Shown piece by piece: positions 30,014 through 60,995 of a DNA stretch of 64,000 nt. Every line of letters begins with the position of its first letter. Position 1 is the first letter of the stretch. The position numbers were made by a program, and so were the translations under genes. The stretch is taken from the NCBI GenBank assembly GCA_007224835.1, contig SRMA01025500.1:85870-149869 (forward strand). The letters run 5' to 3'. Source of the stretch: Danionella cerebrum (Eukaryota). The notes under the pieces were generated by a model. It searched no databases, was not told the origin of the DNA, and saw only the letters and a program-made list of their open reading frames with translations.

Positions 30014-30029
30014 GTTCTTTGAGCTTTTT

Positions 30030-38557: not shown

Positions 38558-38638
38558 GTTCTGCCGGGAGTGCTTTGAGTGAAAGCAGTGGGCAAATGTT
38601 TGATGAACAAATGCAAGATTCCGCTCCTTTAACATTTG
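38558..38638 (+). CDS. parp4: parp4 exon
   Basis: Acceptor tctctatctacag. GSAGSALSESSGQMFDEQMQDSAPLTF matches human ...FQSSDTESDELSEVLQDSCFLQI. Chosen donor G|gtatgg (phase 1). Alternative donor CG|gtacaa 10 nt downstream not excluded. Confidence 0.6.
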
Positions 38639-40229
38639 GTATGGGACGGTACAATTTGTTTCAGACAGATTCACAATTAGCTCAACCAGAGAAATTCGGC
38701 ATTGGATCAACCTTTTATTTGGAACTAAAATGACACATCATCCTGCTAATGACCGACTGGTCAGATGTTGAGTTCATTGGTTTGTCGCACTCAATTTTAA
38801 ATGAGGAAGATCTAGAAAAAAAAGATTCTGAACCAAATACTGTAGTAAAACATTTTATATCAGCTGTGTAAAAGTTAACAGCAGTTTAAAGAACAATTAT
38901 ATGCCAAACAAACAGTCAGTAAACAGTAAAAGTAAAAAAAAAGGCTGTAATGTTTCATACCTGCTCCTTACAATCCGCGCTATGGTAGGGCGATGACGTC
39001 AGCGCGCACCTTTGGCTCCGGTGTGTGATTGGAATTTTCCTATATAATACTACCATCTAGTGGTCATTTAGAGAAATGTAATTTGAGAAACTTTTAAGAG
39101 CACACATCATACTTCAGTCCCGCCCTTCTTCCGGCGCTTGTCTCTTTGAGAGGCTCGAGGTTCTTTTCCAATGCGGATAACACATGTGTAGGAAATGCGT
39201 TGAGACTGCTAAATCTTTACAATAAATAGCTGCATTTGCTGTGTTCTTTCTCAAACGGTCTCCAGTGTCTATTATCAATTGAGAAGGTATATTTTTACGA
39301 TAACAGGAGCTAGGCTGAAGCCGCTGCCTCTCTTACACCTCTCCTACGGCCGTGACCGCCCTCCGCTCCGTGGCGCTCTGCATTCACCGTATAAGACGCT
39401 CCAACTTTTCCCCCCTCAGTTTTGGGGAAGAAAAAGTGCGTCTTATACGGCGAAAAATACGGTATGTGGATATTGTTATTCGTCTTTTGCTTCGGACCAA
39501 ACATTCTAAACACCTTCTAGACCAGTGGTGTCAAAAATGTAGCATTTAAATGAATGCTATATTATAATAATAATTGCGTATTAATTGCTTTGCTAATAAT
39601 TTGTTTGTAACCAAGTATTTAGCCTCGCAGCAGCGTGTTAATATGACAGGTCTATTTTTGAGCAGAACGGGCACCGGCAGTCTCTATGTGCCTCTGACTT
39701 TGGTTTCCTCTTTAAGTGACGATGATTCGTTCTGCAGGAGGCAAAACCGCTAACAATATCATCGCTGTTGTGCTGCTAAAAGCTTGTCGTTTTTTAAAAT
39801 GATAACTTTCTGAGGCTGAACTCTCAGTTTGAAGTTAGTTCTTGTCTTAAATCAGAGGCAGATTTTGTGTGGAAAACAAAACAGTAAATCAGCAAATTCA
39901 TTAGAATTGTTTTTTTAATCCTATGTTTATTTAAAACTGCAGTGTAATGTTGCTTACTTCCTTTACCAAACATTACAAGAGTTATTCCAACTAATCCACT
40001 GTTTAGTTTAGTAGTTAACTGGGAGCTCAATATGAAGAGTTTCAATATGAAGTGAAAGGGTTGTTCCTGAGAATATTCTTTTTGACTGTTTTGGTTTTCT
40101 CAAAACATTCTTTGTGGAAATATTTGTTCCTACAAATGATTTACTTTCACAATCTGGTTATTTGCTGGAAAAAAATACAAACTATTAATAGGAATAATAA
40201 GATGTGTTTAATGAATTAATCAATTAAGG

Positions 40230-41273
40230 CAATCAATGATTATTCTACGTGATTTGTCTGATCCGGCCCCTAGAAGCTCAAATGGGTTTGACACCCCTGC
40301 TCTAGACCGTCCAAGTTACAGCCACCAAACTTTGCCAAGGCATCCAAACTGGTCTTACTCAGGATGCTATATCTTTCAGACTGGTACCACAAAAGGAATT
40401 CTGGGAAATCACAGAGAATGCTGCGAAATTTTCATTGACCTAACATGGGGTCAAACTTTGTTAAACTGTAACTCAAATGTAAAACCTCAAAGAACCATTG
40501 ACTCATCACGACCATTGAAAAGCATCGAAGATATCTTCAGGATGCATTATCATAGAGAAATGTGGATTTGATTATGTTAATCATAGCAACCAAACTGTTT
40601 ACCCTAGCAACCATATTTTCTGAACTCTTAACTTTGGTGTGGACATCTTTTATTTGCTCAGAGTATAACAGATGTTTTCTCTCTATCTTCAGGTTTAGCT
40701 CGGAAAAGAAGCTCTCAGCCGATGCTTATGAGACAAGAGGGTAGGTTTATATACTTTATAGTGACAAAAGCAACATTAAAGCATGTCACCGACCTCTCCA
40801 TAGCAACCAGACAGCTTATCCTAGCAACCGATTTGCCAGAACCGTAGCCCAGATTTGGGAAATCATAAAGACATAGGTGTTGATTTGTCACCACCATGAC
40901 ATAATGTACATGTATTCTGTCACTGACCCCTCCATTGCAACAAGACCATAGCAACCAAATTTACAGATACATAACTCCGCTTATGAACATCAAAGTGACA
41001 TGGGGGTTGATTTGTGTTACTTATTGTGGCTTTGGGAACTTTGGTTTAAACAGCACTGTTACAAGTTTGTGTGGAATCTTTAGCTTTTAGTTAACCTCGT
41101 TTCTTATTAATAGATCTTCATTCTTATTTTCAATCCAATGCCCAAAACACATTGTTTTCCACTCATTAATTTTATTCAAAAATCTAATATTAATCCTTTA
41201 AATATGAGTGAAATTGAAAACAACTTGAACAGCTTTTTAACCCTGTGTAATTTATCTTTAAATGGTCTCTATC

Positions 41274-41307
<34 letters not shown>

Positions 41308-44210
41308 ATTTTAATGACATCATCATAAGGCCAATTTTCAATTCCCCCAAAACACATAGTTACAAAACTGACAGCAATAATTACATCAAATATTAGCAGT
41401 CATCATAAACCATTGGTTAGCACACAGTATGTCACAAAAGTGAGTACACCCCTCACATTTCTGCAAATATTTATTTATATCTTTTCATGGAACACTGCAG
41501 AAATGACTCTTTGACACAATGAAAAGAAGTCAGTGTAAAGTTTGCAGTGTACATTTACTGTCCCCTCAGCTGTCCAATAATAGCTGAACCGCTGACAACA
41601 AAAGCGAAAAGTGTCAATATTTTGTGTGGGCACCATCATTTTCCAGCACAGCTTTAATTCTATTGGCCGTAGAGTTCCCCAGAGCTTCACAGTTTGCCAC
41701 TGGAATCCTCTTCCAGTCCTCCATCACAACATATCAAAGAGGTGGTGGGCGTTTGACACCTTGTGCTCCCCCACATTGCTTTTCAGGACACCCTAGTTCA
41801 ATGGGGTTTAGGTCTGGAGACAAGCTTGGCCAGTCCATCACCTTTACCCTCTTTAGCAAGCTGGTGGTCATCATGGATGTGTGTTTGGAGTCATTATCAT
41901 GCTGGAGTACTGCTCTGTGGCCTAGTTTCCAGAGGGAGGGCCATCATGCTCTGCTTCTTTACATTTTAGAATTCATGTTTCCCTCAAATGAATCCCAGCA
42001 GAACTCAGATCATGACTCTCCCACCACCATGTTTAACAGTAGGCAAGACACACTTGTATATGTATTCCTCACACACGCTTGACACCATCTGAACCAAAAA
42101 GGTTCCTCTTTGACTACAGGATGCGGTTCTAGTTCCTGGTCCTTAGTTTGCATGTCAGCAGCAAATAGTTTGTGAGGTTTCTTGTGCACCATCTTTGGAA
42201 GTGGCTTTCTTCTAGGATGAAAAACATTAGGGGCAATATGATGCAGTGTGATACGTTTGGTCTGAGCATTGGCAGGCTGACCTCCCATCCCTTCATCTCT
42301 GCCTCAATGCTGGAAGCACTCACCCGATGAACTTTTGCCGAGGCATCCAAACTGGTCTTACTCAGGATGCTATGTCTTTTCAGACTGGTACCACAAAAGG
42401 AATTCTGGGAAATCACAGAGAATGCTGGGAAATTTTCATTGACCTAACATGGGGTCAAACTTTGTTAAACTGTAACTCAAATGTAAAACCTCAAAGAACC
42501 ATTGACTCATCACAACCATTGAAAAGCATCGAAGATATCTTCAGGATGCATTATCATAGAGAAATGTGGATTTGATTATGTTAATCATAGTAACAGCTTT
42601 AAAAAATGTTATGACATCATTGAGAGTTGCCTAGCAACCAAACTGTTTACCCTAGTAACCATATTTTCTGAACTCTTAACTTTGGTGTGGACATCTTTTA
42701 TTTCCTCAGAGTATAACAGATGTTTTCTCTCTGTCTTTAGGTTCTGCTGTTGAAGATTTTGCTCAGAGCAGAAGCTTTCAGCTTATGAGACAAGAGGGTA
42801 GGTTTATATACTTTTATAGTGACAAAAGCAACATTAAAGCATGTCACTGACATCTCCATAGCAACCAGACAGCTTATCCTAGCAACAGATTTGCCAGAAC
42901 CGTAGCCCAGATTTGGGAAATCATAAAGACATAGGTTTATGTCTCTCAACCTGTCAACAACTTTCAGTGGCCAGGTTGAGAGAGTGGAAGAGCTTTTATA
43001 CCAAATTGTACTCAGCTGTTCCCAGGGGTTTAGCTCTTATTGTCTGTTTTTTTTTTGTTATTTTGAGAGGACAATAAATGTACAAACTTTACACTGACTA
43101 CTTTTTATTGTGTCAAAGAGTAATTTCTGTGAAAATATATACATTTAACAAATTTGTGACATTGTAGTTTTCATTTGGTCAAAATATGTTTTTTTTTTTA
43201 TCAATAATGTACAGGTTATGTTCAGTATCTCTATCTAATACTGTTGAAAACTTAAACATTTCCTATTTCCTCACAGTATAACAGTTGTTGCTCTCTATTT
43301 ACAGGTTTTGCTTCTCGCCGTCTTAATTACTTTTCTAGGAAGAGTGCATGTTTAACCCAAAGATTTGAACAACACGGTGAGAAATGTTTCAGATAGTCAC
43401 AATCAGCTCAAACAGAGAAATTTAAATCGAAAATTGAAACAGTCTTTTATGTTGATGTCTCTGGTTTGCCAGAGTCTAATTATGTTGACTTGTAAAATCC
43501 AACATATTCTAAACCAAACATTGTTAGAATGCCAAGGAGACCCAAATGCAGGAGGGGAAAAAACAATGTCTTTGAGCAGCCAAAACAGAAAATACTCTGA
43601 AGATAAGGAACAGAGAAGAGTGGAGGGGTCCTCACGCCATACAGGAGTCCAATGCAAAAGGCTATCTGGAGAAGGTACAAAAGCATTTGTGGAGAAACAT
43701 ACTGTGCAAGAACATACCAACCACAGCTCAAAGGTCTTTTCTAGAAGGGGTTAAATATTTGCCATTGAAAAATAAATAGGAAAGGCAACAAAGATATCTT
43801 CAAGATGAAACATCATAGAGGAATATAGATTTAATTATGTTAATCATAGGAACAACTTCCAAAAATGTGTGACATCAATGACTGATGCCTAGCAACCAAA
43901 CAGTTTACCCTAGCAACCACATGTTCTGAACTCTTTTATTAACTTTGGTAAATAATGGACATGAGGGTAGGTTTATATACTTCATAGTGACAAAAGCAGC
44001 ATTAAAGCATGTCACTGACCCCTCCATAGCAACCAGACAGCTTATCCTAGCAACCGATTTGCCAGAACCGTAGCCCAGATTTGGGAAATCATAAAGATAT
44101 AGGTGTTGATACTGACCCCTCCATAGCAACAAGACCATAGCAACCAAATTTGCATATACAGAATTCAGTTTAGGAACATCAGAGACATAGGGGTTGGTTT
44201 TATGTTACTT
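40230..44210. repeat. Tandemly triplicated ~1.2-2.1-kb segment filling the large parp4 intron; each unit carries an exon-like piece flanked by ag|G...AGG|gtaggt
   Basis: Near-identical stretches at 40300-40760, 42300-42800 and 43790-43970 (..tcgaagatatcttcaggatgcattatcatagagaaatgtggatttgattatgttaatcatag..). Each is followed by gtaggtttatatac... at 40741, 42798 and 43966. The first two units are separated by a Tc1 fragment. Confidence 0.7.
41400..42310 (-). mobile_element. Tc1-like transposase fragment inside the tandemly repeated block
   Basis: Minus ORF 42010-42288: ...RRKPLPKMVHKKPHKLFAADMQTKDQELEPHPVVKEEPFWF, similar to the Tc1 transposase KKPLL.KKHKKARL.FAK.H...W..VLWSDE region. The plus-strand ORF at 41624 is its antisense. 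Confidence 0.5.
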
Positions 44211-44271
44211 ATTGTAAAAATTTGTAAAAAGGCTTTAGTTAACCTCATTTCTTTTATATTTATGCATTTAG

Positions 44272-44402
44272 CAGTTATGCATTCTACAGATTTGGAATCA
44301 GCCTATAGATATAAAACACGCAGAGGCAGAAAAAGTGTGAGTATTGATTATGTCACCAGACCAGAACCTGCGTGGAATGTACTGTTTAAGCATCAGCAAC
44401 AG
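44272..44402 (+). CDS. parp4: parp4 exon (MVP-interacting C-terminal region)
   Basis: Acceptor tatgcatttag, phase 1 in. AVMHSTDLESAYRYKTRRGRKSVSIDYVTRPEPAWNVLFKHQQQ matches human ...EVKEEDEIVCIQHWQDAVPWTELLSLQTE. Donor CAG|gtgcgc. No intervening exon detected in 38639-44271, but small exons could be missed. Confidence 0.6.
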
Positions 44403-44487
44403 GTGCGCATGCTTACTTTGATACTGTTGCTTATATTAATTGACATTTGCTGAAATGTGACAGTTTGTGGTCTGTTTTGTTATGTAG

Positions 44488-44590
44488 TACGGATACTGGG
44501 AGTGCACCAGCATCCTGAGCAGCTTCCTCAACCTGGATATGGAGTTTTTTGCCAACGTCTTCCTTACGGAGAAAGGCATTTGTTCATTTG
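44488..44590 (+). CDS. parp4: parp4 exon (C-terminal region)
   Basis: Acceptor ttttgttatgtag. YGYWECTSILSSFLNLDMEFFANVFLTEKGICSF matches human DGFWKLTPELGLILNLNTNGLHSFLKQKGIQSL. Donor G|gtaaga, phase 1. Confidence 0.8.
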
Positions 44591-45234
44591 GTAAGAAGTT
44601 TTTTTATTGTTAAGTTGTCATTTTCACACATTCATTGTTGATACATTGTTGCAATCGTCTACAGATTTAGTCATCATTCACCCCGTACTGATCGCTCTGG
44701 TCCGCACTAGTGGAAAATAGATCCATGTGACATCATACAGGCCACTCATTTGTCACATTTTACGTCTTTTTTAGTCCAAGCTTGAGGCACTTTTATTCGT
44801 ACCCATTTGGGCAAGGGTCTAAAAGGAGGTTGAGTCATTCTATGGTTATACTTTTCTCTGATTGGAAAGAAAAGTGTGACGCAACATCCTGCTAAACGCT
44901 GACTAGTCAGATGTTGAGCTGTTTGGTCGGCCGAAAGAATCAAAATTAGTTTTTGGACGGCCACTATACGCACATAGTTTAACAAAGTCAAAAAAGCTTC
45001 GGAATTTAACATCCCATATGCCTTAAATTAAGACTGATGAAGTCGGAAATGAACGATATATTCTCTAGGAGGAGTTTTTTAAAGTATGACATGAGCAAAA
45101 GTGGACATTTTAAGAGGCTTTTGTAAAATAACGACTTGCTGTTGAATTTGGAAATACTTTGACTTAGTCTTCTTACCCTGCTCATGTCTACCAACACATT
45201 AGGTGGCGCTATATAGCCATTTTGCCACATCCTC

Positions 45235-45375
45235 TTTTGTAACCCCAGTTAGACAGTTTTCGTCTCAGATGCGCACGGGGAGAACGTGCAAACTCCTTCC
45301 AGGAAGGTCACCGGCGAGCTTCGAAACGACAACCTTCGAAATGGAATGCCACAGTGCTACCCACTGAGCCCATCA
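45235..45375 (-). mobile_element. tRNA-derived SINE head (reverse orientation)
   Basis: ggagaacgtgcaaactccttccaggaaggtcaccggcgagcttcgaaacgacaaccttcgaaatggaatgccacagtgctacccactgagcc. Same motif at 53525-53695 and a fragment at 15955-16020. Confidence 0.5.
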
Positions 45376-45545
45376 GTTAACTATTAATTTAGCTTTAATA
45401 ATTTTTACAGTTAACAAAACTTTTTTAGTTTTTGTTCGTTTCATTTGTTTTCGTTAACTTAGATTATCTTCCTGCATTTTCGAAAGTAGTCACTGGTTTT
45501 CACTTGCTCTGGTTCACTAATCATGTGATGATTTTGTTTAATTAG

Positions 45546-45678
45546 GTGTGAAGGCTCGCGCTGATATTCTGCGTCTGTTGGCGACTATGCTGGTTCTACA
45601 GCTGATCCGGGTGAAGAATCCTGAGGTTGGACAGCTGCTTAAATCTCTCCTCCGAATGAAAGAGTGCCAGGAGCCCAG
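45546..45678 (+). CDS. parp4: parp4 penultimate coding exon
   Basis: Acceptor tttgtttaattag. GVKARADILRLLATMLVLQLIRVKNPEVGQLLKSLLRMKECQEP matches human GVKGRECLLDLIATMLVLQFIRTRLEKEGIVFKSLMKMDDASISRN. Donor AG|gtacag. Confidence 0.85.
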
Positions 45679-48242
45679 GTACAGTTACAGTGTAACGAAT
45701 CGTCACTCGAGTTGGGATCCATAGGCGGGCTTTATTGGAGGTCAGACAAGCAAAGTTCAGGCACCGGCGTATCTAGCAATACAGGACAGACAGAGGCGTA
45801 GTCAGACAACAGGCTAATGGTCAGGGAAGGCAGCAAACAATCTGAATCCAATGACAGAAATGGCAATACAGCAGGCAGGTAGCGAGAATCGTAAACGGTA
45901 AACAGGCAGGTCACAACAGGTAAGCATGCACAGGTAGTAATCGCTCAGAATTGCAGCAGTATGCAAACAAGACTTCGCAAAGTGTGATCAGTTTAGATCT
46001 ATTTAACCTCTTAAGCCCAAGAGTCCCCGGTACCGGGGACTTGCCCCCTTGTGCGTTACATTTTCACTCATAGCTCACGAACCCTGAGAATAACCCACAC
46101 ATATTAAATACTGTTGTGTTCAGCGGAAACTCCTCTAAAAACGTATCTAATTCAATTTCATATCCGTTAACCACAGCTCGAACGCCATGCAAATAAACAA
46201 CAACATGTCCGGAGTATAATTCATGACCACGTTTTTGTTTATGTGCGATATGTATCCACAATATAAACGGAAACACCCAAACCATTACATTAAATGAAAG
46301 CTAACAACCAGCTGAATCCAGTGATATGCAACTCATTAACATTGCATGAAGTATTTCAGAGCAGGGAGCGAAAGTTCCACGAAAAAACGCCAGCGAAAAC
46401 CAAGCAAGCATGTAAATCTTGTCTTACCTTTGCCGTTTTTTCAACAAAAAGTTATTTCCATAGCGATAAAAGTCCGTTTGTTGTTATGTCCGGTCGATAG
46501 CTTCGCGCAAACGCCATTTTGGATTATTTCTGTAGCTTTGTGGCGTCATTACGTCACCAAATATGGAATGACTCCCCGTGCGTAAGAGGTGGTCTCTCCA
46601 CGCTGCGCGTCGTGTGATTCGTCTGCGATCCCGTCAGACTCAAAATGGTTGAGCTGATTGGTTTCCATAGAATCAGAGCTTTCCAGCGATATATAGATCT
46701 CCCGGATTGGACAGATGGTCGGGGGGGTAGGGACACGCAGAAGCTCGACGTCAAAGCGTTTGTGAGTGAAACGTTCCCAAAAGCGCAGCAAGATGGCGTA
46801 AATGAGCTTCTACCCCCCTTTTACAGCGTTTCTTTAGGAGTTTTTTTTGCTGAAATCATGTCCCATAAGCAAGAAAAGAAGACTATGAACGTAGCTAAAG
46901 CTTTGGACAAGATTTTTTCCATATTTCAATTATTGTGCCAAATTGTGCCAAACTGTGCCAACATGGATTGCGCCTAAACTTTGTTCAATCAAAACCTTTA
47001 CAGAATATTAGTTTCTTGTAGTATGAACACCAAACTTGCTACAGATGTTCTTGACATGTAGTGGTTACAATTGATTGTGTTTATTTTCTTCGTTATAAGT
47101 AAAATAAGGAGATATTGGAGGAAACATGTGTTTTTTTTTAGGCGGAGTTCATTTTTGGCCATTCCAACATCAATTACTCTTACCCAGTGTTCTTGACTGT
47201 CAAATTAACTCATCCACACCACTCCCCAAGAACCTATCTTCATTTTGATATCAAGATTTGCAGTTTAGGCCTTGTAAAAGCTGAGAAATGCCTTAAAAAG
47301 TAAAAGTATAGGATTTTCGGAAAATAGGCCTCAGGGCTTAAGAGGTTAAGTAGAGGGGTGAAAGGCTCTTCAGCTGGGGGGATAATCAAGGTGGACTTGG
47401 GGATCGTGGGAAATGTAGTGTAGAAGGCAGAAGTTAGTGGGGCGATGGTTCCCTCTGTTGGTCAGAGAAGGGAGTTACGGGGTTTGTCTCTGTGACATAC
47501 AGATAATCAACACTAATAGAATTTAGAGAATGGTTTACATTTAGAAAGTGGCGAGAGATTGCCATTGGCTTAATACTAGAAAAATACTGTTTTCAGTTGT
47601 AGGCAGCATATGCCTCAAGGACTATGTTCGAAATGCTTAACTATGCAGTAGGTGCTATGTACGTACTCTGCAAAAAGAGCAAACCCATGATTTATGATCA
47701 AAGTTTCAGCACCTTTTACCATCGTCTGTGTGATGGAAGGACTCTGTTCCTTTCTGTCTCGAGACAAAGTTTTCCGGGGCCCCAGAGGTGACATGGAAAG
47801 AAACACGACACGGAGATCATGCATCAACCAGTCACAAATTTATTGGTAGTTTGTTCTGGGTTTTTATACAGTTCAGAACAGTGGGTGTTAATGAACTTTT
47901 TACAAGAAAAGGGACGAGAGGCATGCTGACTTCAGCATTCAGGAGTGGTGGGGGCGAACCCAGGTCAGCCTGACCTTGGGCCTGTGTACGCCTGCACACT
48001 CCTGAATGCAATGAGAAATGCTGCAGCTGGAGAAACTATGGGTTTCCTGTATCTGAATGTCTGTATTTCTATCACATCTGTCAACGGGAGAGTGGAGTGC
48101 CAGAACCCGGAAACGCAACACGATCAAACACATTGCTTAAGCATTCTATAAAATACTGGGATTTCACAACTTGCTGGTGTTTACAAGTTTTGACAAAGTC
48201 CACAAACTCTAAGTGTTCAGTATATGTTTTTCTCGTTTCAAG

Positions 48243-48444
48243 GCCTATGTACTGGGGGGATGTAAAAAGAGCCGTGGAATGGGCCCGTCAAACTGACAGA
48301 CAGTATCCATGTGTGTGCAGCCGACTGGAGATCGGCTGGGATTGGGAATCATCTACCCGTCAGTTACTGGGCTATGACCCTCCGCACCCATGTTCCTCTC
48401 TCAGATCTGTTCTAGCGAGAGACATGAGCATCTCTGTCCTGTGA
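48243..48444 (+). CDS. parp4: parp4 last coding exon with stop (TGA 48442-48444)
   Basis: Acceptor tctcgtttcaag. RPMYWGDVKRAVEWARQTDRQYPCVCSRLEIGWDWESSTRQLLGYDPP... matches human IPWAFEAIKQASEWVRRTEGQYPSICPRLELGNDWDSATKQLLGLQP... 3' UTR follows. ATTAAA near 48676. Confidence 0.85.
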
Positions 48445-48640: not shown

Positions 48641-48646
<6 letters not shown>

Positions 48647-49320: not shown

Positions 49321-49559
49321 AAAAATATTTTATTACAATACTATAATCATATAATTCGTGTGGTTTTAACATTAATTCATGTATTTGAATCCAATCAGGT
49401 GTTAATCCCTTCTAACAGGTGTCCATCTGTTTGATCTTTTATTTTTTCCTTTTGTTATTTATTTGTTCATTAAAAAAGCTTCTCTAAACCCATAGATTCC
49501 TAGCCCCCGACTCAAACGAACATTTCTAGATAATGTTAAACAAACCAGATTCAATGCCT

Positions 49560-49925
49560 TTACCAAGTTGCATCACAAGTTGCCATTTCATAAAAGTCCC
49601 GTCGAGAAATATTATCCCAAGGACTCGCATCACAGTTCTGATCCAGTCTATCAACAGACTCAAGTTCTTCAATGAGAAGAATATGATTCGAGCATAACCT
49701 CTCTGCTCTCTTTTTGGCTATTTCCCGCAATTTTGTATCCAAGAATACGTCTGTCTCCTCAGACAAGAGCTCTTCATAGCGTGTGCGGTAGAATGGCTTT
49801 CCTTTGCTGTTCTTCAAACACGGGCAACAACATTTCCAACACCAAATACAAATCATAACAATCTTGGTGTTTGATACCAGCCACCACCCGATGAAACCAG
49901 CCGTGATCATGATGTAACCATAGAA
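49560..49925 (-). CDS. CALHM/FAM26-like four-TM protein, copy 2, terminal coding exon (TM4 + tail, includes stop)
   Basis: Minus acceptor tgttctttctctttgcag|TTC. Encodes FYGYIMITAGFIGWWLVSNTKIVMICIWCWKCCCPCLKNSKGKPFYRTRYEELLSEETDVFLDTKLREIAKKRAERLCSNH...*. Collinear and similar to copy 1 exon (KSRWKPYYKSLYETQLEWE..KAVERAKHVI). Confidence 0.6.
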   Translation of the reverse strand, partial: FYGYIMITAGFIGWWLVSNTKIVMICIWCWKCCCPCLKNSKGKPFYRTRYEELLSEETDVFLDTKLREIAKKRAERLCSNHILLIEELESVDRLDQNCDASPWDNISRRDFYEMATCDATW

Positions 49926-50159
49926 CTGCAAAGAGAAAGAACATCAAACAAAACAGTCTGTTAATATTGAATTAATGGCACTTTTTAAAACCATTTTAAC
50001 AGAAAAATGAACAACTTTCCTCAAGTAATCTCTGTATAAAACGCTCATAATTGAACTAGGCATGAAGTAGCTAAACATTTGACGTGTGGAGGCAGCTAAA
50101 TTGCTCCAATCCTCTCAAGAACAGATGTTTTCAATGAACTTCGGCAATGCTTTCTTTCT

Positions 50160-50500
50160 CATTTGTACACAGTAAAATCCTAAGAGTTAAATTAACTCTA
50201 CTCAGAGTGTATTTGGTCCCACTCTATATAGAGTTAAACCAACTCTGAAGAAGAGTTATTTAAATAAGTCAATTTGAACTAAACAGTCTATTTTTGTCTG
50301 TTTTTACTCTTTCTGGAGTAGACTTGGTCCCTCACTGAATAGTTAATATTTTCCATGCAGATTTGGAAAAACATGAAGAAAATAGATTATTAAATTACTC
50401 TTTCTTAGAGTCGGTTTAACGCTATATAGAGTGGGACCAAATATACTCCGAGTAGAGTTAATTTAACTCTTGGGATTTTACTGTGTAAAGCCCCAGGATC
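50160..50500. mobile_element. MITE-like non-autonomous element with ~75-bp terminal inverted repeats, in the intron of CALHM-like copy 2
   Basis: Left arm cacagtaaaatcctaagagttaaattaactctactcagagtgtatttggtcccactctatatagagttaaacc (50170-50243) is the reverse complement of right arm ggtttaacgctatatagagtgggaccaaatatactccgagtagagttaatttaactcttgggattttactgtg (50413-50487). No coding capacity. Confidence 0.55.
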
Positions 50501-50756
50501 AGACCCAAGATGGGCTGCGCAAAAGCCCACCAGCAGCCACTGGGGTTGTATTGCAATATTAAAACATGACATAAAATTAGCAAGCTTTACAAAACAACCA
50601 TTTTATTAGCAATTTATAACGATTATGATTGGACAGTTACAAATAGAAATTATAAACATAAAGATGTAGAACTCTATGGAGCAACGTAACAAATGCATTT
50701 TACTTAAGTGGAATTCTCAAGAAAAAACACACTTGAAGTAAAAGCCGTGTGCTCAC

Positions 50757-51194
50757 CTGTGACCAGTTTTTGTAGACGGTGATGATGCTGTCTTCGTGTA
50801 GACTACGATTTGACTTGCATGGAATTTCACGCTGGTTTTCTATTTGTTTGGTCATGATACAAACGTAAAGGTCTCCGTCTAAAAGGACACATCCTAACCA
50901 GAACAAACTGATTCCAAAAAGCTGCACCAACTGAGGACACACACCGTAGCAGCATGTACCACTGACCTTCGTCCTGGTTTGATTCATCAGTTTTAAAATA
51001 AAAAACAATATTACAGGAACAAGTAGAACGTAGATGAACACAATCATGTGTACAGTTTCCACACAGGAGCAGGAAAACTGGGAGTTAAATATGTACTGAA
51101 AGATGTAAATCATCACAACAACCAGGAATAAATTGGCAGCCTGTGAGAGAACCATGCGCAGTTTGTTGGGAAGATCAGAGATGAAATGAGGCAT
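50757..51194 (-). CDS. CALHM/FAM26-like four-TM protein, copy 2, first coding exon (146 aa)
   Basis: ATG at 51192-51194 (revcomp) with A at -3. ORF ends at donor WSQ CAG|gtgagc. SQFSCSCVET (cf CPC motif), three hydrophobic helices, LLDGDLYVCIMTKQIENQ (cf CALHM1 LLDGKCFLCAF). Paralogous to 14717-15196. Confidence 0.6.
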
Positions 51195-55568: not shown

Positions 55569-55633
55569 GTGAGTAGAAGCTTAACGGATCATTTTGCACT
55601 GCATTCAACATTTATTGCAATGTTTGTTTTCAG

Positions 55634-55993
55634 CATCTAAAGGGAACGTTGAGAGCACCACTCCATCTCTTCTGGGAGACCTTGAGGATGATGTCGTCCT
55701 CGATTGTAGGTTCATCGCTTCCAGTTCCAGTGGGCAGATGAGTGACGTGTCGGTGACTTGGCTGAAAGATGCTCTCAGTGGTGTGGTCTACGAATACAAG
55801 AACAAAGCCCCTCAGCTTCAGCAGCAGAACCCACAGTTCAAGAACAGGGCTCAACTGTTTCCAGAGGTTCTTTCAACTGGGAATGTGTCTTTACTGCTGA
55901 GAAACGTGAAACTGGAGGATGATGGCGTATATCATTGCGCTGTCGATGCCGCACAAGTAAAAGGCACTGCCAGCATTGACTTCAGAGTGGCAG
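55634..55993 (+). CDS. vtcn1: VTCN1/B7-H4-like IgV domain exon
   Basis: Acceptor gtttgttttcag, phase 1 in and out. ...VLDCRFIASSSSGQMSDVSVTWLKDALSGVVYEYKNKAPQLQQQNPQFKNRAQLFPEVLSTGNVSLLLRNVKLEDDGVYHCAV... parallels human B7-H4 ILSCTFEPDIKLSDIVIQWLKEGVLGLVHEFKEGKDELSEQDEMFRGRTAVFADQVIVGNASLRLKNVQLTDAGTYKCYI. Donor G|gtatat. Confidence 0.8.
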
Positions 55994-56429
55994 GTATATA
56001 TACCTTTAAACTGTGTAAATGTAGAATTATATAGTGTTTAAAATCAGATGAATGTTAAAATATCGGGAGGGGGTTTAGTGCAGGCTTTATTTTATTTACA
56101 AAAGGGTGCTCTGTGTCTTTCGTGGTGATCGGTGGTGAATGTGCTCATGATCTTCTGTGGCGGTTGAGGATTGGTGCTGGTGATCGGGATCCGTTCTCTT
56201 CTTCGTGGGGTAACCTATGTGCAGTTGTGAGGGAATCAGGTGGTCCAGGCTTAACGCAATCAGACATCAGTGGGCTCTTGGAGTACAATACTCTTTGTTG
56301 CTGTTCTCCTTTTATTCCCGTTCTACTGATGGAGTCAGGTGTGCCTGGGCCACGCTAATTGTGTTACCCAGGTGTGTGTTGTTTGGGAGAAGGAGAAAGC
56401 TGATATGAATGGACACTGTCACACTATGT

Positions 56430-57342
56430 AGGTACACTTGTGCTCATAAGTTTACATACCCTCGCAATTTTTTTTGCCCATTTTTTCTGAAAATTTTAAT
56501 GATAAAACTCGTAGCCGGTGGTTGGGTGAAGCCTTTTAATGTCAAACAGCTGTGTTTACTCTTTTAAAATCATAACGACAACAGAAACATTCCAAATGAC
56601 CCTGATAAAAAGTTTACACACCCCAGCTCGTACTGTTTGTACCCCTCTGCTTTTTGTATTCAACGAACATCTCTTGAGGTAGTTGTCAATGAGGTTCTTT
56701 ATCTTCTCTGTTGGTAAAGCAACCTCAGATTCTTGTAAATTCTTGCATGAACTGCACGTTTGAGTTCTCCTCAGAGTGGTTCAATGATATTGAGGTCAGG
56801 AGACTGAGATGGCCACTCCAGAACCTTCACGTTGTTCTGGTGTAACCTATTACACGTGGACCTGGTCTTGCGTTTTGGATAATTGTTGTGTTTGAATGTC
56901 CGGTAACGTCTCATGCGCTGCTTCTGGACTGTCGAGAGGAGATTTTCCTCTGGTATCCTTTGATAACATGCTGCATTCATCTTCCAATTAGATTCTTGTG
57001 CCTTTATGGTAACTCGACCAGTCAAACCACTTTTCTTTCTTTCTTTTTTTTTAATGATCAACTTGATTTTAATATGGAACAAGATAAACGAAAACACAAC
57101 AAAGTCATTTACAAGGCTACACCCAACACCCAATCAGCCCAAATGGACACCAACAAATTCACCCCAGGCCACCTCGAGAATCCTTGCAGCCACTAGTCAT
57201 CACCAACCCACTCCCGCAGCCACTGGTATCCACAGTGCTCACTATAAATAGGAAGGAAGGAAGGAAGGAAGGAAGGAAGGAAGGAAGGAAGGAAGGAAGG
57301 AAGGAAGGAAGGAAGGAAGGAAGGAAGGAAGGAAGGAAGAAA

Positions 57343-57431
<89 letters not shown>

Positions 57432-58170
57432 GGATGAATGGAAGGAAGGAAGGAAGGAAGGAAGGAAGGAAGGAAGGAAGGAAGGAAGGAAGGAAGGAAG
57501 AGTTGGGGGGAGAGGGTGAAGAAAGAGTTGAAAAACCACTTTTCTAAAAGTGTCTCCTCGTAGTGCTCCATGAAAGAGCCATGCCACAAGTTTTGAGAGG
57601 CCTGACTTCAGCTCAAGTTATTTGTGGGTTTTTCCTTGCATCGCTTACAGTTTTCTGGCAGTTATAGCAGATCTTTTGGTTGGTCTACCTGACTCTTGTT
57701 TGGTTTCAACAGAAACCCTCACTTCTTAATCAGAGTTCAATTCCCAGTTCCTTTGATATTTTTTCATATCTTGTTCCTGTTTTGTACCTTTTCCCGTAAA
57801 TCCTTTTACAGCTCTTTTACGTTCCCTGTCACCCAGAAATGTCAGTGCATCATGATGACAGAAGCAAGGGTCTATCAGGACCCAGAAACCTTTTCTGCGC
57901 AAATATAGATTATCAGCAAACAGATTGCAGAGGAGGAGAGTTCACTTTAGCAGCCATTCGAACCCTTTTGTGTCAGTTTTTGTGCATGTTATCGTGCCAA
58001 AATCACCAGTGTGTGTAAACCTTTGATTAAGGTTATTTGGAAAGTTTCATTGTTATTTATAAAGAGTTGTTGGTTTCACCCAACCACTAGCTTTCGCGTT
58101 ATCATTCATATTTTCTGAAAAATGGAAAAGAAATCAGAAAATTTGCCAGGGTGTTAAACTTTTGAGCACA
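56430..58170 (-). mobile_element. Tc1-like transposon in vtcn1-like intron, interrupted by a (GGAA)n/(GAAA)n tract
   Basis: Ends cacttgtgctcataagtttacataccc (56440) and ccagggtgttaaacttttgagcacaactg (58140). Minus ORF 56771-57133 contains NNVKVLEWPSQSPDLNIIEPL (transposase). Confidence 0.6.
57248..57520. repeat. Long (GGAA)n-(GAAA)n-(GGAA)n compound microsatellite
   Basis: About 270 bp of ggaaggaagg... then gaaagaaaga... then ggaaggaa. Gives rise to spurious KEGRKEGRK / FLPSFLPS ORFs on both strands. Confidence 0.95.
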
Positions 58171-58759
58171 ACTGTATGTGGTGGTAGTTAATATATAATA
58201 TTTAAGTAGGAATTTAGAAATCTGAGCTTTTATTTATATACCACCACATTCATTTACATGAAACTTTTAAGAAAATATGGTCTAAAGTGAGGGTTTTCAG
58301 AAATAAGGGTTCAGTGCTGGCAGCAACAATGTCATTTTCAGCTTGTCTGGAGCCAGTAACCCTTTTAAGTATAATTATAGTCCAAGAGGACTGCAGAGTT
58401 AGAATTAAATCAGTCTCTTTTGGACTCCTACTTCAGAGATTTGGGTACTTGGGTACAAGGTAAACAAAAATAAACGTGGATGTTGGCGGTAAAACGTAGC
58501 CTTACATGTTCAGACATCTGTCAGGTAGATAAAAACCTTCAAATAATGAGAAGGGATACACAAAAATAAATCAGATTCACAAATATCTTTTCAAGAGTCA
58601 CAAAAATACCCCATAGACATACTGCTCCTCCTTTTGATGCATAACAGGAAGTGACTGATCTAGAAGCGTGATACCCCTATGGTTTTCTTTCAAGGAAGAG
58701 ATAAAGGATTTAGGTTGTGTTTCAGAAAACTGCCTATTATTAATTGTGTCTATGTGCAG

Positions 58760-59014
58760 CATATTCAGCTCCAACATTCACTGCAGCTAACGGGTCCCTG
58801 TGTGCTAAGGCTAAGAGATGGTTTCCGCAGCCCGAGGTTCTGTGGTTCAATGAGAATGGACAGATTCTAAACAGCAGCACCAGTTTTATCAATAAAAATG
58901 CAGGAATTGTACAAGTGACCAGCGTCCTTCAAGAGCAGTTGCAGCAGAATTTCTCATACACCTGCAAGATCCAGAACGCTCTTGTGACTGGGATCTCAGA
59001 AGCTACTGTCACAG
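58760..59014 (+). CDS. vtcn1: VTCN1/B7-H4-like IgC domain exon
   Basis: Acceptor tgtctatgtgcag, phase 1/1. ...SLCAKAKRWFPQPEVLWFNENGQ...NFSYTCKIQNALVTGISEATVT matches B7-H4 LRCEAPRWFPQPTVVWASQVDQG...NTYSCMIENDIAKATGDIKVT. Donor G|gtaaaa. Confidence 0.8.
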
Positions 59015-59139
59015 GTAAAATAGAAATGCTTTCGGGATACGAAGTGAGAAAACTATTTTACAGAGGGTATGTAAGCATCAATCTGTCATTTATTAAGCCT
59101 AAAAGGAAATTCAGTTCCATACATTGGAAGCGCAGCATA

Positions 59140-60330
59140 AACATACAAGTCCTTCTCAAAAAATGTGAATATTGTGATAAAAAGTTCATTATTTTCTGTC
59201 GATAAACATTAGACTTCCATATATTTCAGATTCATTTATACACAACTGAAGTAGTTCAAGCCTTTCATTGTTTTAATATTGATGATTTTGGCACACAGCT
59301 CATGAAAACCCAAAAAGTCTAAAAAAATTATCATATCATGAAAATGCTCACTAAACGAGCTATTAAACTAATCATCTGAATCAACTAACGAATCGGCTGT
59401 TCCCAGAGTGCTGTATCAAGACATCTCAGTGGGAAGGAAAAGTGTGGCAGAAAACGTATATGATGTATAAGAAAACCCTGAGGAAGATTGTGGAGAAGGA
59501 GAGATTCCAGACATTGGGGGACATGCGGGAGCAGTGGACTGAGTCTGGAGTAGAAACATCCAGAGCCACCGTGTACAGGCGTGTGCAGGAAATGGGCTAC
59601 AGGTGCCGCATTCCCCAGGTCAAGCCACTTTTGAACCAGAAACAGCGGCAGAAGCGCCTGACCTGGACTGCTGGTGTTGGTCCACTGTGTTTTATCAAGG
59701 GCGGGGTCAATGCCGCGAGCTATCTGGAGATTTTGGAGCACTTCATGCTTCCATCTGCTGAAAAGCTTTATGGAGTTTAAGATTTCATTTTTCAACCTGA
59801 CTGGCACACCCGCTTACAGTGCCAAAACCACTGGTAAATGGTTTTTTGACCATGGTATTACTGGTGCTCAACTCTCCTGACCTGAACCCCATATAGAATT
59901 TGTGGGATATTGTGAAGAGAAAGTTGAGAGACTCAAGATCCCAACACTCTGGAGGAGCTTAAGGTTGTTACTGAAGCTTCCTGGGCCTCCAGAACACCTC
60001 AGCAGTGCCACGGGCGGATTACCTCCATGCCACACCGCATCGAAGCAGTCATTTCTCCAAAAGGATTCCTGAACAAGTATTGAGGGCGTAACTGAACAGA
60101 ATTATTTGAAGATTGACTTTTTCTTGTATAAAAAACACTTAGTCGGAAGAAATATGCTAATTTTTAAAGATTTTTTTTGGAAGTTTGAGTTTTCATGAGC
60201 CAAAATCACCAATATTAAATCAATAAAAGGCTTGAACTACTTCAGTTGTGTGTAAATGAATCTAAAATATATGAAAGTCTAATGTTTATCAGTACAGAGG
60301 TATGGAAATGTCCAGAGGACCAAATGGAGA
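59140..60330 (+). mobile_element. Tc1-like transposon with recognisable terminal inverted repeats and a transposase pseudogene
   Basis: Left end ...catttatacacaactgaagtagttcaagcctttcattgttttaatattgatgattttggc... is the inverted complement of the right end ...gccaaaatcaccaatattaaatcaataaaaggcttgaactacttcagttgtgtgtaaatg. Internal ORF 59442-59780 has a Tc1 transposase middle part, then frameshifts. Confidence 0.65.
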
Positions 60331-60885
60331 ATTGTCAATTTAGAAATTGGCAACTGACTGGAAGGTCAACCAGAGCCACACCAGTCACATAGACTTTTTG
60401 CTCTTAAACAGTCTTTAAACTCTACTCTCTCCAGTTCAATTAACGTTTGCAAAGTTTGCTTAAATTTGGTCTTTTCTCTAACAAAATTCACTATACAAGC
60501 TATAAGTTCTGAAAAAAAATGCATAGGGTGAATTTAAAAACGTTAATCATTTAAAAGTGTGATCTTTAAATAAGGCCAAGTCTGTGTTTCTGTGCCAGCA
60601 CATAAGGAAGGCTTTTCAATTAGACTAGGAAAACGAGCAAAAAACCCAGAGTGTGAAGTGTTTTCCAGAAGCACTCGGATGAATTTAAGTTTAACTGGAG
60701 ATACCCACAATCACAATATTTACCCAGACAAACACCAATTGTTGACTCGTTCCGATCTGATTAAACAAATGCAATATCAACCCACCAGGACAAACATACA
60801 CGATGTAAAACATGAAGATCAAATAAGCAGCATACATACTATACCTTCTGTCATAAAATATTGTGTTTTTCTTACTATTCCTCAG

Positions 60886-60995
60886 CAAACAATGTGACGC
60901 AGAAGACATACTTCGAATTCAGTGATGCCTCTGCAAACATGCCATCACCAGGACTTGTGCTCACATTCCTCTTCAGTCTCTCTGCGCTCCAGTAG
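60886..60995 (+). CDS. vtcn1: VTCN1/B7-H4-like terminal exon with GPI-anchor-like hydrophobic C-terminus and stop
   Basis: Acceptor cttactattcctcag in the correct phase 1. Encodes ANNVTQKTYFEFSDASANMPSPGLVLTFLFSLSALQ*, small residues followed by a hydrophobic tail, resembling the human B7-H4 C-terminus LCVSSFFAISWALLPLSPYLMLK. First in-phase exon downstream of the IgC exon. Other small exons not excluded. Confidence 0.45.

What the first reader, a model, noticed from the sequence alone, without database searches (positions are those of the whole stretch)
49560..51194. Second CALHM-like paralog on the other side of parp4 (same strand, same two-exon structure)
Exons 51194->50757 and 49925->49560 encode a 267-aa protein collinear with the upstream copy. 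Shared features are SCSC vs CPC, LLDGDLYVCIM vs MEGGWYVCLRTV, and CWKCCCPCLKNSKGKPFYRTRYEELL vs CLKSRWKPYYKSLYETQLEWE. Amino-acid identity is roughly 30-35%, so the duplication is old. The two copies bracket the entire 32-kb parp4 gene and are both antisense to it.
Basis: seen in the sequence. Interest (0 to 1): 0.55.

Follow-up and report, generated by a model that had tools for sequence, protein, structure and literature searches.

The report
Unannotated divergent CALHM-like gene beside parp4
The finding is a real, intact two-exon gene in the fish Danionella cerebrum, missing from the protein collection searched, that encodes a very divergent member of the CALHM channel family; it is an ancient relative, not a close twin, of the CALHM-like gene on the other side of parp4, so it is a useful annotation fix rather than a surprise.

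Summary
Observation confirmed. Exons 51194-50757 and 49925-49560 (minus strand, GT/AG intron of 831 nt, phase 0) encode 267 aa. The protein passes Pfam Ca_hom_mod (28.4 bits, cutoff 25). It aligns collinearly with the copy at 15196-14717 / 13082-12765: BLASTP E 5e-13, and the Smith-Waterman score lies 14.7 sd above shuffles that keep local composition. Identity is 24-25%, not 30-35%.

parp4 (about 16623-48444, plus strand) lies between the two copies. The window is Danionella cerebrum. Copy A is the deposited protein TRY93764.1. Copy B is absent from a 15-billion-protein collection, so it appears unannotated.

Copy B looks functional:
- dN/dS against cyprinid orthologues is 0.27-0.33.
- An orthologous spliced mRNA contig has the same exon junction.
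- The four loop cysteines and the Asp-Gly of TM3 are conserved.
- The best fold matches are CALHM5, 1, 6 and 4.

The same gene order (parp4, B, B7-like Ig gene, RING/B-box gene) occurs in Labeo rohita and one other genome, of unknown species but closest to Labeo. A sits head-to-head with parp4 in Puntigrus, Astyanax and Prochilodus.

A and B are not sister paralogs (0/200 bootstraps). B is closer to uncharacterised acanthomorph genes at the same Ig/TRIM position. Both belong to a large, unstudied fish CALHM-like group outside CALHM1-6. Channel function is inferred, not shown.

The parts
50757..51194 (-). Copy B, coding exon 1 (146 codons from ATG). It encodes the N-terminal helix, TM1-TM3, extracellular loop 1 (FSCSC) and most of loop 2 (DGDLYVC ... 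IPCK).
   Evidence: The start MPHF/LxSDxPxK is conserved in all orthologues. Exon 1 is 67% identical to Labeo by tblastn.
49926..50756 (-). Copy B intron, 831 nt, phase 0, GT...AG.
   Evidence: The junction is at the same alignment column as in copy A. It matches the contiguous junction KNWSQ|FCGY in the orthologous mRNA contig L008.
49560..49925 (-). Copy B, coding exon 2 (121 codons plus TAA). It encodes TM4, the Cys-rich juxtamembrane stretch CIWCWKCCCPC, the C-terminal helix (KPFYRTRYEELLSEETDVFLDTKLREIAKKRAE) and a variable tail.
   Evidence: helices 132-165 and 191-237. dN/dS by region.
49438..49463 (-). Two AATAAA hexamers (49463-49458 and 49443-49438), about 100-120 nt downstream of the stop. 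Candidate polyadenylation signals.
   Evidence: Read directly. This is weak evidence because the region is A/T-rich.
50166..50487 (.). MITE-like insertion inside the copy B intron: 98-nt terminal inverted repeats, 91% complementary, 126 nt apart.
14717..15196 (-). Copy A, coding exon 1 (160 codons).
   Evidence: The spliced product is 100% identical to Danionella cerebrum TRY93764.1 / DNTS_023455. Pfam Ca_hom_mod 51 bits.
12765..13082 (-). Copy A, coding exon 2 (105 codons plus stop).
16623..48444 (+). parp4, lying between the two CALHM-like genes. It is head-to-head with copy A and tail-to-tail with copy B, about 1.1 kb stop to stop. The ends are approximate: the first and last tblastx-matched exons (16623 and 48420), with the last open frame running to 48444.
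   Evidence: and the Pfam content of the collinear genes.
55585..61000 (+). B7/butyrophilin-like Ig gene (V-set plus C2-set_3), head-to-head with copy B. I take it to be vtcn1-like; that name rests on my memory of the human TRIM45-VTCN1 neighbourhood, not on a test.
   Evidence: V-set 43.5 bits, C2-set_3 36.4 bits. Collinear with Labeo and L011. The same neighbour is seen in Channa and Epinephelus.
62437..63051 (+). First exon of a RING/B-box TRIM gene. The collinear genes elsewhere carry a Filamin domain, so I call it trim45-like by inference.

Best explanation
Window 49560-51194(-) is an intact protein-coding gene of Danionella cerebrum that is missing from the protein collection searched. 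It encodes a 267-aa, four-transmembrane subunit of the CALHM (calcium homeostasis modulator, Pfam PF14798) fold.

Shown here:
- The gene model and its splice sites.
- Family membership by HMM, and fold similarity to solved CALHM structures.
- Conservation of the four extracellular-loop cysteines that form the two disulfides in solved CALHM structures, and of the Asp-Gly in TM3.
- Purifying selection.
- Transcription and identical splicing of an orthologue in another fish, species unknown but closest to Labeo.
- Conserved gene order parp4 / B / B7-like Ig gene / RING/B-box gene in Labeo and one further genome, species also unknown and closest to Labeo.

Evolution: copy B and copy A (12765-15196) belong to two different old subfamilies of a large, uncharacterised, almost entirely fish CALHM-like group that is not orthologous to any one of CALHM1-6. 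B groups by similarity, by the FxCSC motif and by position (next to the Ig and TRIM genes) with unnamed acanthomorph genes. A has orthologues in all three otophysan orders sampled (Cypriniformes, Characiformes, Siluriformes), and where I looked (Puntigrus, Astyanax, Prochilodus) it sits head-to-head with parp4. The split therefore predates the otophysan/acanthomorph divergence.

Mechanism (inferred, not shown): like solved CALHMs, the protein probably oligomerises through TM2/TM4 and the C-terminal helix into a large-pore, non-selective channel. The N-terminal helix and TM1 would line the pore, and two disulfides would staple the loops. The seven cysteines just after TM4 are probably S-palmitoylated, because CALHM1 carries a palmitoylated Cys at the equivalent position.
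For: Gene model.

Pfam Ca_hom_mod: 28.4 bits for B and 51 bits for A, cutoff 25.

A versus B: BLASTP E 5e-13 and a shuffle z of 14.7.

Species and annotation status: copy A equals TRY93764.1. The exact B protein is not in the collection, and the best hit to B is only 58% identical.

Selection: NG86 dN/dS is 0.27-0.33 against four orthologues. It is about 0.2-0.3 across residues 1-225 and about 0.7 in the tail, residues 226-267.

Orthologous spliced mRNA: Logan contig L008 carries an ORF from nt 61 with a contiguous junction KNWSQ|FCGY.

Sequence comparison with solved structures:
- The profile hits CALHM6 (4.6e-12), CALHM1 (6.2e-12), CALHM5, CLHM-1 and CALHM2.
- In the alignment, B C42/C44/C112/C126 fall on OlCALHM1 C41/C43/C126/C160, and D106-G107 fall on D120-G121.
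- These are the disulfide and TM3-kink residues described in bioRxiv 10.1101/2020.01.31.928093.

Fold:
- The AF2 model has mean pLDDT 71.8, with helices at 10-40, 48-74, 85-117, 132-165 and 191-237.
- The top four Foldseek hits are all CALHM6, CALHM4 or CALHM2/4.

Synteny.

Subfamily placement.
Against: - There is no expression data from Danionella itself.
- The Pfam score is only 3 bits above the cutoff.
- The structural model is of moderate confidence (pTM 0.55). Foldseek TM-scores to CALHM chains are low (0.32-0.38), so fold support rests on ranking rather than on a tight superposition.
- dS to the orthologues is about 1.0-1.3, so dN/dS is approximate.
- Deep nodes of the neighbour-joining tree are poorly supported (B plus acanthomorph B-like: 20/200). 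The B-acanthomorph link therefore rests on BLAST scores, the CSC motif and synteny, not on a resolved tree.
- Several solved human CALHMs (4 and 6) gave no currents in the heterologous recordings I recall, so a CALHM fold does not guarantee channel activity. This last point is my recollection of PMC7242029; I listed that paper but did not read it here.
Confidence: 0.85

Rival explanations
1. Copy B is the direct sister duplicate of copy A. On this view, a local duplication placed one copy on each side of parp4, and the 24% identity reflects fast divergence afterwards.
For: - Both genes lie within 36 kb on the same strand.
- Both have the same two-exon structure, with the phase-0 intron at the homologous position.
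- Both belong to the same fish CALHM-like group.
Against: - Copy B scores about 120 bits against acanthomorph proteins and 53.5 bits against copy A. Copy A scores 92-100 bits against Megalops and Prochilodus 'C-like' proteins.
- A+B was an exclusive clade in 0 of 200 bootstraps.
- The FxCSC motif is shared by B and the acanthomorph genes but not by A.
- Channa and Epinephelus B-like genes sit next to the same V-set Ig gene, and in Channa next to the TRIM/filamin gene as well, exactly as copy B does.
- The two-exon structure is shared by every relative examined, so it does not discriminate.
Confidence: 0.07
2. Copy B is a decaying or non-functional relic (an unprocessed pseudogene), which would explain why it is not annotated.
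For: - It is absent from the protein collection.
- The B family evolves fast: cyprinid pairs have dN/dS 0.46-0.57, and the C-terminal tail is about 0.7.
- The Pfam score is marginal.
Against: - The 267-codon frame is open across both exons, with canonical GT/AG sites.
- dN/dS is 0.27-0.33 overall and about 0.2-0.3 across residues 1-225.
- All invariant family residues are retained: F40, C42, C44, W99, G107, C112, C126, the KPxY motif, EET and W249.
- An orthologue is transcribed and spliced.
- Failure to annotate is not evidence of decay. The Labeo orthologue is also mis-modelled, and several B proteins have no precomputed Pfam hit.
Confidence: 0.06
3. The ORF pair is a chance open frame, or a transposon-borne fragment, that resembles CALHM only through hydrophobic composition.
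For: - The region is A/T-rich and carries transposon debris nearby: a MITE-like element in the intron and Tc1-like fragments elsewhere in the window.
Against: - Shuffles that keep local composition never approach the observed score.
- Orthologues occur at the syntenic position in several species.
- A family HMM hit and fold hits are present.
Confidence: 0.01

Closest known systems
CALHM family (CALHM1-6 / FAM26; Pfam PF14798 Ca_hom_mod), closest by profile to human CALHM6 and medaka/zebrafish CALHM1
   Same: - Four TM helices plus an N-terminal helix and a long C-terminal helix.
- The FxCxC motif in loop 1 and two Cys in loop 2, aligned to the two conserved disulfides.
- The Asp-Gly in TM3.
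- Cysteine(s) at the cytosolic end of TM4, where CALHM1 is palmitoylated.
- Two coding exons.
   Different: - Only about 15-23% identical to the solved CALHMs in the structural alignments.
- Equally distant from CALHM6 and CALHM1 (E 4.6e-12 vs 6.2e-12), so it is not an orthologue of any named member.
- Shorter (267 aa).
- The loop-1 motif is CSC instead of CPC.
- It has an unusually dense Cys cluster (7 of 11 residues) after TM4.
- No functional data exist.
Cyprinid 'uncharacterized protein' LOC131539422 (Onychostoma macrolepis), LOC113053756 (Carassius auratus) and the Labeo rohita protein labelled 'Calcium homeostasis modulator protein 2'
   Same: - Orthologous family: 53-58% identity by BLASTP to the deposited proteins.
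- Same exon structure, same N-terminus and same motifs.
- In Labeo, the same position between parp4 and the Ig gene.
   Different: - The Danionella gene is not in the protein collection.
- The Labeo name 'CALHM2' is not supported. The deposited 236-aa model is also truncated and mis-spliced; the true model is 271 aa.
- The Onychostoma and Carassius genes have no parp4 or Ig exons within 10 kb.
Copy A in the same window (Danionella cerebrum DNTS_023455 / TRY93764.1) and its otophysan orthologues
   Same: - Same superfamily, same strand and same intron position.
- Shared invariant residues.
- Adjacent to parp4.
   Different: - 24-25% identity.
- A has FxCPC, a 4-residue deletion before the motif, a long Cys-rich TM2-TM3 loop in most species, and no Cys cluster after TM4.
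- Different nearest relatives.
- A evolves more slowly (dN/dS 0.16-0.23).
Acanthomorph uncharacterised genes (e.g. Poecilia LOC106923608, Channa striata Q5P01_013913, Epinephelus LOC144466894)
   Same: - The nearest relatives of copy B outside cyprinoids (about 30% identity, about 120 bits).
- They share the FxCSC motif.
- In the two genomes examined (Channa, Epinephelus), they share the position head-to-head with the V-set/C2-set Ig gene next to the TRIM/filamin gene.
   Different: - No parp4 immediately downstream in the two genomes examined. Epinephelus has a C-type lectin gene there, and Channa has no called gene within 10 kb.
- Orthology versus older paralogy is not resolved by the tree.

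Membership tests
CALHM / Ca_hom_mod (PF14798) | Match to the curated family HMM above its gathering score | tested here: met
   Copy B scores 28.4 bits against a cutoff of 25 (E 1.1e-6, residues 23-223 on profile positions 21-242 of 252). Copy A scores 51 bits. The margin for B is small.
CALHM / Ca_hom_mod (PF14798) | Four transmembrane helices preceded by an N-terminal helix and followed by a cytosolic C-terminal helix | tested here: met
   The AF2 model has helices at 10-40, 48-74, 85-117, 132-165 and 191-237. pLDDT is 80-95 over most TM blocks, with an overall mean of 71.8. This is a prediction only.
CALHM / Ca_hom_mod (PF14798) | Two conserved disulfides between extracellular loops 1 and 2 (OlCALHM1 C41-C126 and C43-C160) | tested here: met
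   B C42, C44, C112 and C126 align to those four cysteines. They are invariant or at least 90% conserved across the A and B families and their relatives. Bond formation itself cannot be tested here.
CALHM / Ca_hom_mod (PF14798) | Asp-Gly at the TM3 bend (HsCALHM1 Asp121 / OlCALHM1 Asp120-Gly121) | tested here: met
   B D106-G107 (LLDGDLYVC) aligns to LMDGKSFLC of OlCALHM1. G107 is invariant and D106 is at least 90% conserved. Copy A of Danionella has Glu-Gly at this position.
CALHM / Ca_hom_mod (PF14798) | Fold similarity to solved CALHM structures | tested here: met
CALHM / Ca_hom_mod (PF14798) | Assembly into a large-pore oligomer (heptamer to about 13-mer) that conducts ions or ATP | not testable with these tools
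   This needs biochemistry, cryo-EM or electrophysiology.
Orthologue of one named vertebrate CALHM (CALHM1-6) | Clearly closest to one named paralog | tested here: not met
   The profile E-values are nearly tied and weak: CALHM6 4.6e-12, CALHM1 6.2e-12, CALHM5 2.3e-8, CALHM2 1.7e-7, CALHM4 0.014. Of the 20 cluster representatives I looked up by name, 15 carry a name: 14 are teleost 'uncharacterized' or 'hypothetical' proteins and one is a stingray 'CALHM6-like' protein.
Sister paralog of copy A (a simple duplicate pair flanking parp4) | A and B are each other's closest relatives | tested here: not met
   BLAST ranks about 30 other representatives above A for B, and several above B for A. The exclusive A+B clade appears in 0 of 200 bootstraps.
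Cyprinoid 'B' orthologue group (LOC131539422-like) | Monophyly, shared gene structure and shared genomic position | tested here: met
   The B family is monophyletic in 200 of 200 bootstraps. Exon boundaries are the same. The order parp4 / B / Ig gene / TRIM gene is collinear in Labeo, and parp4 / B / Ig gene in L011, which does not reach the TRIM gene. The position is not conserved within 10 kb in Onychostoma and Carassius.

The most novel reading that the evidence does not exclude
Copy B and its acanthomorph counterparts may form a distinct, ancient 'CSC-type' CALHM lineage. It would be held next to the B7-like Ig gene and the trim45-like gene in otophysan and acanthomorph teleosts, would have no tetrapod counterpart, and would be one of several such lineages in a fish-specific expansion. 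That expansion has 381 50%-identity cluster representatives at E<=1e-3, and nearly all of those looked up are unnamed. If so, fish have additional large-pore-channel-like subunits beyond CALHM1-6. The dense juxtamembrane cysteine cluster suggests heavy lipidation and a specialised localisation. An immune role is conceivable, given the B7-family neighbour and the role of CALHM6 at the immunological synapse (PMC10068325, listed).
Probability: 0.45. Interest if true: 0.4.

Novelty: new member of a known kind. Interest (0 to 1): 0.3.

Why it matters
The practical value is for annotation. Danionella cerebrum is a neuroscience model, and this gene is missing from the protein collection searched. Its cyprinid orthologues are unnamed, truncated or wrongly labelled 'CALHM2'.

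More broadly, the two genes in this window are entry points into a large group of fish CALHM-like genes that sits at the edge of Pfam detection. I found no coverage of it in the CALHM literature I searched. The conserved microsynteny (A|parp4, and B|Ig gene|TRIM gene) gives a framework for naming these genes.

This does not change how CALHM channels are understood unless function is shown.

Tried and rejected
The look-up of P0015's contig returned nothing. Annotation status therefore rests on the exact-sequence cluster look-up and on the absence of any hit above 58% identity.

2. phmmer of copy B alone against PDB sequences gave only E 0.25-1.7 to CALHMs. The family profile was needed.

3. I considered a third cyprinid paralog ('B2': Onychostoma and Carassius, versus 'B1': Labeo, L008 and Danionella).
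   - For: the tree groups DcB with Labeo and L008 in 193 of 200 bootstraps, and the Onychostoma and Carassius loci lack parp4 and Ig exons within 10 kb.
   - Against: dS values are 0.25 within each pair, 0.46-0.55 between pairs, and 0.96-1.34 from Danionella to all four. That fits the species tree equally well, with a single gene that moved or has longer intergenic spacers.
   - Left unresolved; not claimed.

4. The neighbour-joining tree could not resolve the deep order of subfamilies (B+acanthomorph 20/200, A+C-like 15/200), so no branching order is claimed.

5. Literature searches for a described teleost CALHM-like expansion found nothing relevant.

6. I could not test whether one non-Danionella species has both A and B flanking parp4.

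7. I could not check zebrafish directly. No Danio rerio protein appeared in any hit list for A or B, which is odd but untested.
Full report
**1. Observation**

Reading the minus strand of 49400-51400 shows the following.
- An ATG lies at 51194.
- The open frame runs to 50757 and is followed by GTGAGC.
- A pyrimidine-rich tract ending in AG lies at 49927-49926.
- The frame continues from 49925 to a TAA ending at 49560.
- The two pieces translate to 146 and 121 residues, 267 aa in total.

The coordinates, the length and the quoted motifs are all correct.

The other copy has the same layout. Exon 1 is 15196-14717 (160 codons, followed by GTAAGT). Exon 2 is 13082-12765 (105 codons plus stop). Both introns are phase 0.

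**2. Is the similarity real?**

- BLASTP of the two products gives one collinear alignment (B 40-258 on A 34-260): 24% identity, E 5e-13 with compositional adjustment.
I shuffled copy A within 15-residue windows, which keeps the position and composition of each hydrophobic segment.
- The observed Smith-Waterman score is 188. The shuffles give a mean of 46.6 (sd 9.6, maximum 91), so z = 14.7 and 0 of 1000 reach the observed score.
- In the multiple alignment with orthologues of both genes, 28 columns are invariant. They include F40, C42, C44, W99, G107, C112, K127, P190, Y192, E203-T204 and W249.
- The intron falls at the same column in both genes: SQ|FYGY in B and SR|VIGL in A.
The value is 24-25%.

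**3. What the genes are**

- Both proteins pass the Pfam gathering score for Ca_hom_mod (PF14798): B 28.4 bits, A 51 bits, cutoff 25.
- A profile of both families hits solved CALHM6 (4.6e-12), medaka CALHM1 (6.2e-12), zebrafish CALHM1, CALHM5, C. elegans CLHM-1 and CALHM2.
- In the printed alignment:
  - B C42 and C44 align to OlCALHM1 C41 and C43;
  - B C112 aligns to C126;
  - B C126 aligns to C160;
  - B D106-G107 align to D120-G121.
- Demura et al. (bioRxiv 10.1101/2020.01.31.928093, read) describe C41-C126 and C43-C160 as the two EL1-EL2 disulfides conserved among CALHM1, CALHM2 and CLHM-1. They describe Asp120/Gly121 as the TM3 kink corresponding to human Asp121. They place a palmitoylated Cys at the intracellular end of TM4.
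- Copy B carries seven cysteines in eleven residues (CIWCWKCCCPC) at that last position.
- An AlphaFold2 model built from an 18-sequence alignment has mean pLDDT 71.8 and pTM 0.55. It has helices at 10-40, 48-74, 85-117, 132-165 and 191-237, that is NTH/TM1, TM2, TM3, TM4 and the C-terminal helix.
- The four best Foldseek matches in the PDB are all CALHM chains (CALHM6, CALHM4, CALHM2/4), with probability 0.99-1.0 but TM-scores of only 0.32-0.38.
- Membership of the CALHM superfamily is therefore supported on five independent criteria. Oligomerisation and conductance cannot be tested here.

**4. Source and annotation status**

- Copy A is 100% identical to TRY93764.1 (DNTS_023455, 'hypothetical protein') of Danionella cerebrum, formerly D. 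translucida.
- The copy B protein is not present in the 15-billion-sequence collection.
- The best hit to it among 5.8 billion clusters is 58% identical.
- Copy B therefore appears to be unannotated in the deposited genome.

**5. Is copy B functional?**

- I built codon alignments with four orthologous CDSs: Labeo rohita re-modelled from L005, the L008 mRNA contig, Onychostoma and Carassius.
- Nei-Gojobori dN/dS is 0.27-0.33 at dS 0.96-1.34.
- dN/dS is about 0.2-0.3 over residues 1-225. The tail, residues 226-267, is near-neutral at about 0.7.
- Copy A gives 0.20-0.23.
- Logan contig SRR13709128_680603 (L008, 1075 nt) carries an uninterrupted ORF from nt 61 (MPHLFSDIPDKMRV...). The junction ...KNWSQ|FCGY... 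is contiguous and an AATAAA lies near its end. It is a spliced mRNA of an orthologue, using the same junction predicted for Danionella.
- Two AATAAA hexamers lie 100-120 nt after the Danionella stop codon.
- A pseudogene is therefore unlikely.

**6. Neighbourhood and synteny**

In the window:
- tblastx and Pfam define parp4 on the + strand from about 16623 to about 48444. It has a PARP catalytic domain hit at 26591-27076 and partial BRCT and VIT hits below Pfam's cutoffs.
- It is collinear with genes that carry WGR-like_PARP4 and PARP4_MVP-ID in Astyanax and Labeo.
- Upstream of copy B, on the + strand, lie a V-set plus C2-set_3 (B7/butyrophilin-type) Ig gene at 55585-61000 and a RING/B-box gene from 62437.
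- Only two CALHM-like genes are present in the window.

In other species:
- **Labeo rohita (L005):** the order is parp4 3' end, B orthologue, V-set Ig gene, RING-B-box-Filamin gene. It is collinear with window 24015-62937.
- **L011 (GCA_977066385.1):** species unknown, about 80% identical to Labeo at the DNA level. It shows the same order from the Ig gene to parp4; the locus does not reach the TRIM gene.
- **Puntigrus, Astyanax, Prochilodus:** the A orthologue is head-to-head with parp4.
- **The two characiforms:** a third CALHM-like gene follows A.
- **Channa striata:** the gene nearest to copy B sits head-to-head with the same V-set Ig gene, next to the TRIM/filamin gene.
- **Epinephelus:** the B-like gene sits next to the Ig gene, but with a C-type lectin gene downstream.
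- **Megalops:** two CALHM-like genes lie in tandem next to the TRIM/filamin gene.

Naming the Ig and TRIM genes vtcn1 and trim45 is my inference. It rests on domain content and on my memory of the human TRIM45-VTCN1 neighbourhood.

**7. Relationship of A and B**

- An exhaustive profile search of 1.84 billion representatives found 381 proteins at E<=1e-3.
- Of the 20 representatives I looked up by name, 15 carry a name. Fourteen are teleost 'uncharacterized' or 'hypothetical' proteins and one is a stingray 'CALHM6-like' protein.
- For copy B, about 30 representatives score higher than copy A. Examples are Poecilia, Channa and Epinephelus proteins at about 120 bits and 29-31% identity, against 53.5 bits for A.
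- Copy A is closer to a Megalops protein and a Prochilodus protein.
- In neighbour-joining bootstraps:
  - the B family and the A family are each monophyletic in 200 of 200 replicates;
  - A+B is never an exclusive clade (0 of 200);
  - deeper nodes are unresolved.
- The loop-1 motif is FxCSC in cyprinoid B and in the acanthomorph B-like proteins. It is FxCPC in A, in the C-like proteins and in classical CALHMs.
- Together with the shared Ig/TRIM position, this makes B the counterpart of the acanthomorph genes and places the A/B split before the otophysan-acanthomorph divergence.
The picture of a simple pair bracketing parp4 is too simple.

**8. Mechanism**

- **Shown:** a conserved CALHM-type sequence and predicted fold.
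- **Inferred from the solved CALHM structures** (and the titles listed):
  - assembly into a ring of subunits with NTH/TM1 lining a wide pore;
  - extracellular loops stapled by two disulfides;
  - the C-terminal helix contacting neighbouring subunits;
  - probable S-palmitoylation of the post-TM4 cysteine cluster.
- I put about 0.4-0.5 on actual channel activity. As I recall, some human CALHMs gave no currents when expressed heterologously.

**9. Verdict**

Copy B is a new (unannotated) member of a known kind. Interest is modest. The value lies in fixing the annotation of a model fish and in pointing to an unstudied fish CALHM-like expansion with conserved microsynteny.

Noticed in passing
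window 50166-50487: A MITE-like element sits inside the intron of copy B. It has two 98-nt arms, 91% complementary and 126 nt apart. The arm sequence occurs only once elsewhere-free in the window at up to 3 mismatches.
   Followed up: partly
window 12510-12680 and 13986-14156: A 171-nt direct repeat, 94% identical. One copy lies just downstream of copy A's stop codon and the other inside copy A's intron. It is probably a dispersed repeat.
   Followed up: partly
L005 9920-10935 (Labeo rohita): The deposited Labeo protein (P0004, 236 aa, named 'Calcium homeostasis modulator protein 2') is mis-modelled and mis-named. The locus encodes a 271-aa product. Exon 1 is 9920-10363 (MPHLFSDIPNKMRV...KNKSQ|GTAAGT), and exon 2 starts after CTCTTGCAG.
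   Followed up: yes
L001 (Onychostoma) and L002 (Carassius auratus), whole loci: The B-family genes of these two cyprinids have no parp4 or Ig-gene exons within 10 kb on either side. In Labeo and L011 those neighbours are 2-3.5 kb away. Either the gene moved or these are a separate paralog; dS values do not decide. In Onychostoma, a 323-aa gene called on the opposite strand spans the locus.
   Followed up: partly
L011 13359-20190 (GCA_977066385.1, species unknown): Only the 5' and 3' parp4 exons match (window 16810-24427 and 44473-48420) in about 5.6 kb. The catalytic, VIT and VWA exons seem to be missing. A second fragment of B exon 1 (88% identical to Labeo) lies beyond it at 20064-20190. 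This could be a rearranged or partly deleted parp4 with a local duplication, or an assembly artefact.
   Followed up: no
L004 16736-17448 (Astyanax); L007 18092-19007 (Prochilodus); L009 10001-16267 (Megalops): Characiforms carry a third CALHM-like gene ('C-like', P0058/P0188) downstream of the A orthologue. Megalops has two tandem CALHM-like genes next to the TRIM/filamin gene, and the second is fused in annotation to a TCTP domain. This points to an ancestral tandem cluster. No C-like gene is present in the Danionella window.
   Followed up: partly
window 15196-16623: Copy A and parp4 are head-to-head, with about 1.4 kb between the start of copy A and the first matched parp4 exon. The same head-to-head arrangement holds in Puntigrus (about 0.9 kb), Astyanax (about 4.2 kb) and Prochilodus (about 3.8 kb). 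They may share a bidirectional promoter region.
   Followed up: no
window 48444-49560: parp4 and copy B converge, with only about 1.1 kb between their stop codons, so their 3' UTRs may overlap or abut. Labeo has about 2.1 kb between them.
   Followed up: no
window 57250-57500; 25219-25560; 41617-41928; 56711-57133; 59442-60083: An (AGGA)n microsatellite of 62 units creates long artefactual ORFs on both strands. Several Tc1-like transposase fragments are scattered through parp4 introns and the Ig-gene region.
   Followed up: partly
hit lists: No Danio rerio protein appears among the relatives of either copy A or copy B. Zebrafish is the closest well-annotated relative, and more distant catfish and characin orthologues were found. 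This could mean loss or missing annotation in zebrafish, or a limit of the word-indexed search.
   Followed up: no
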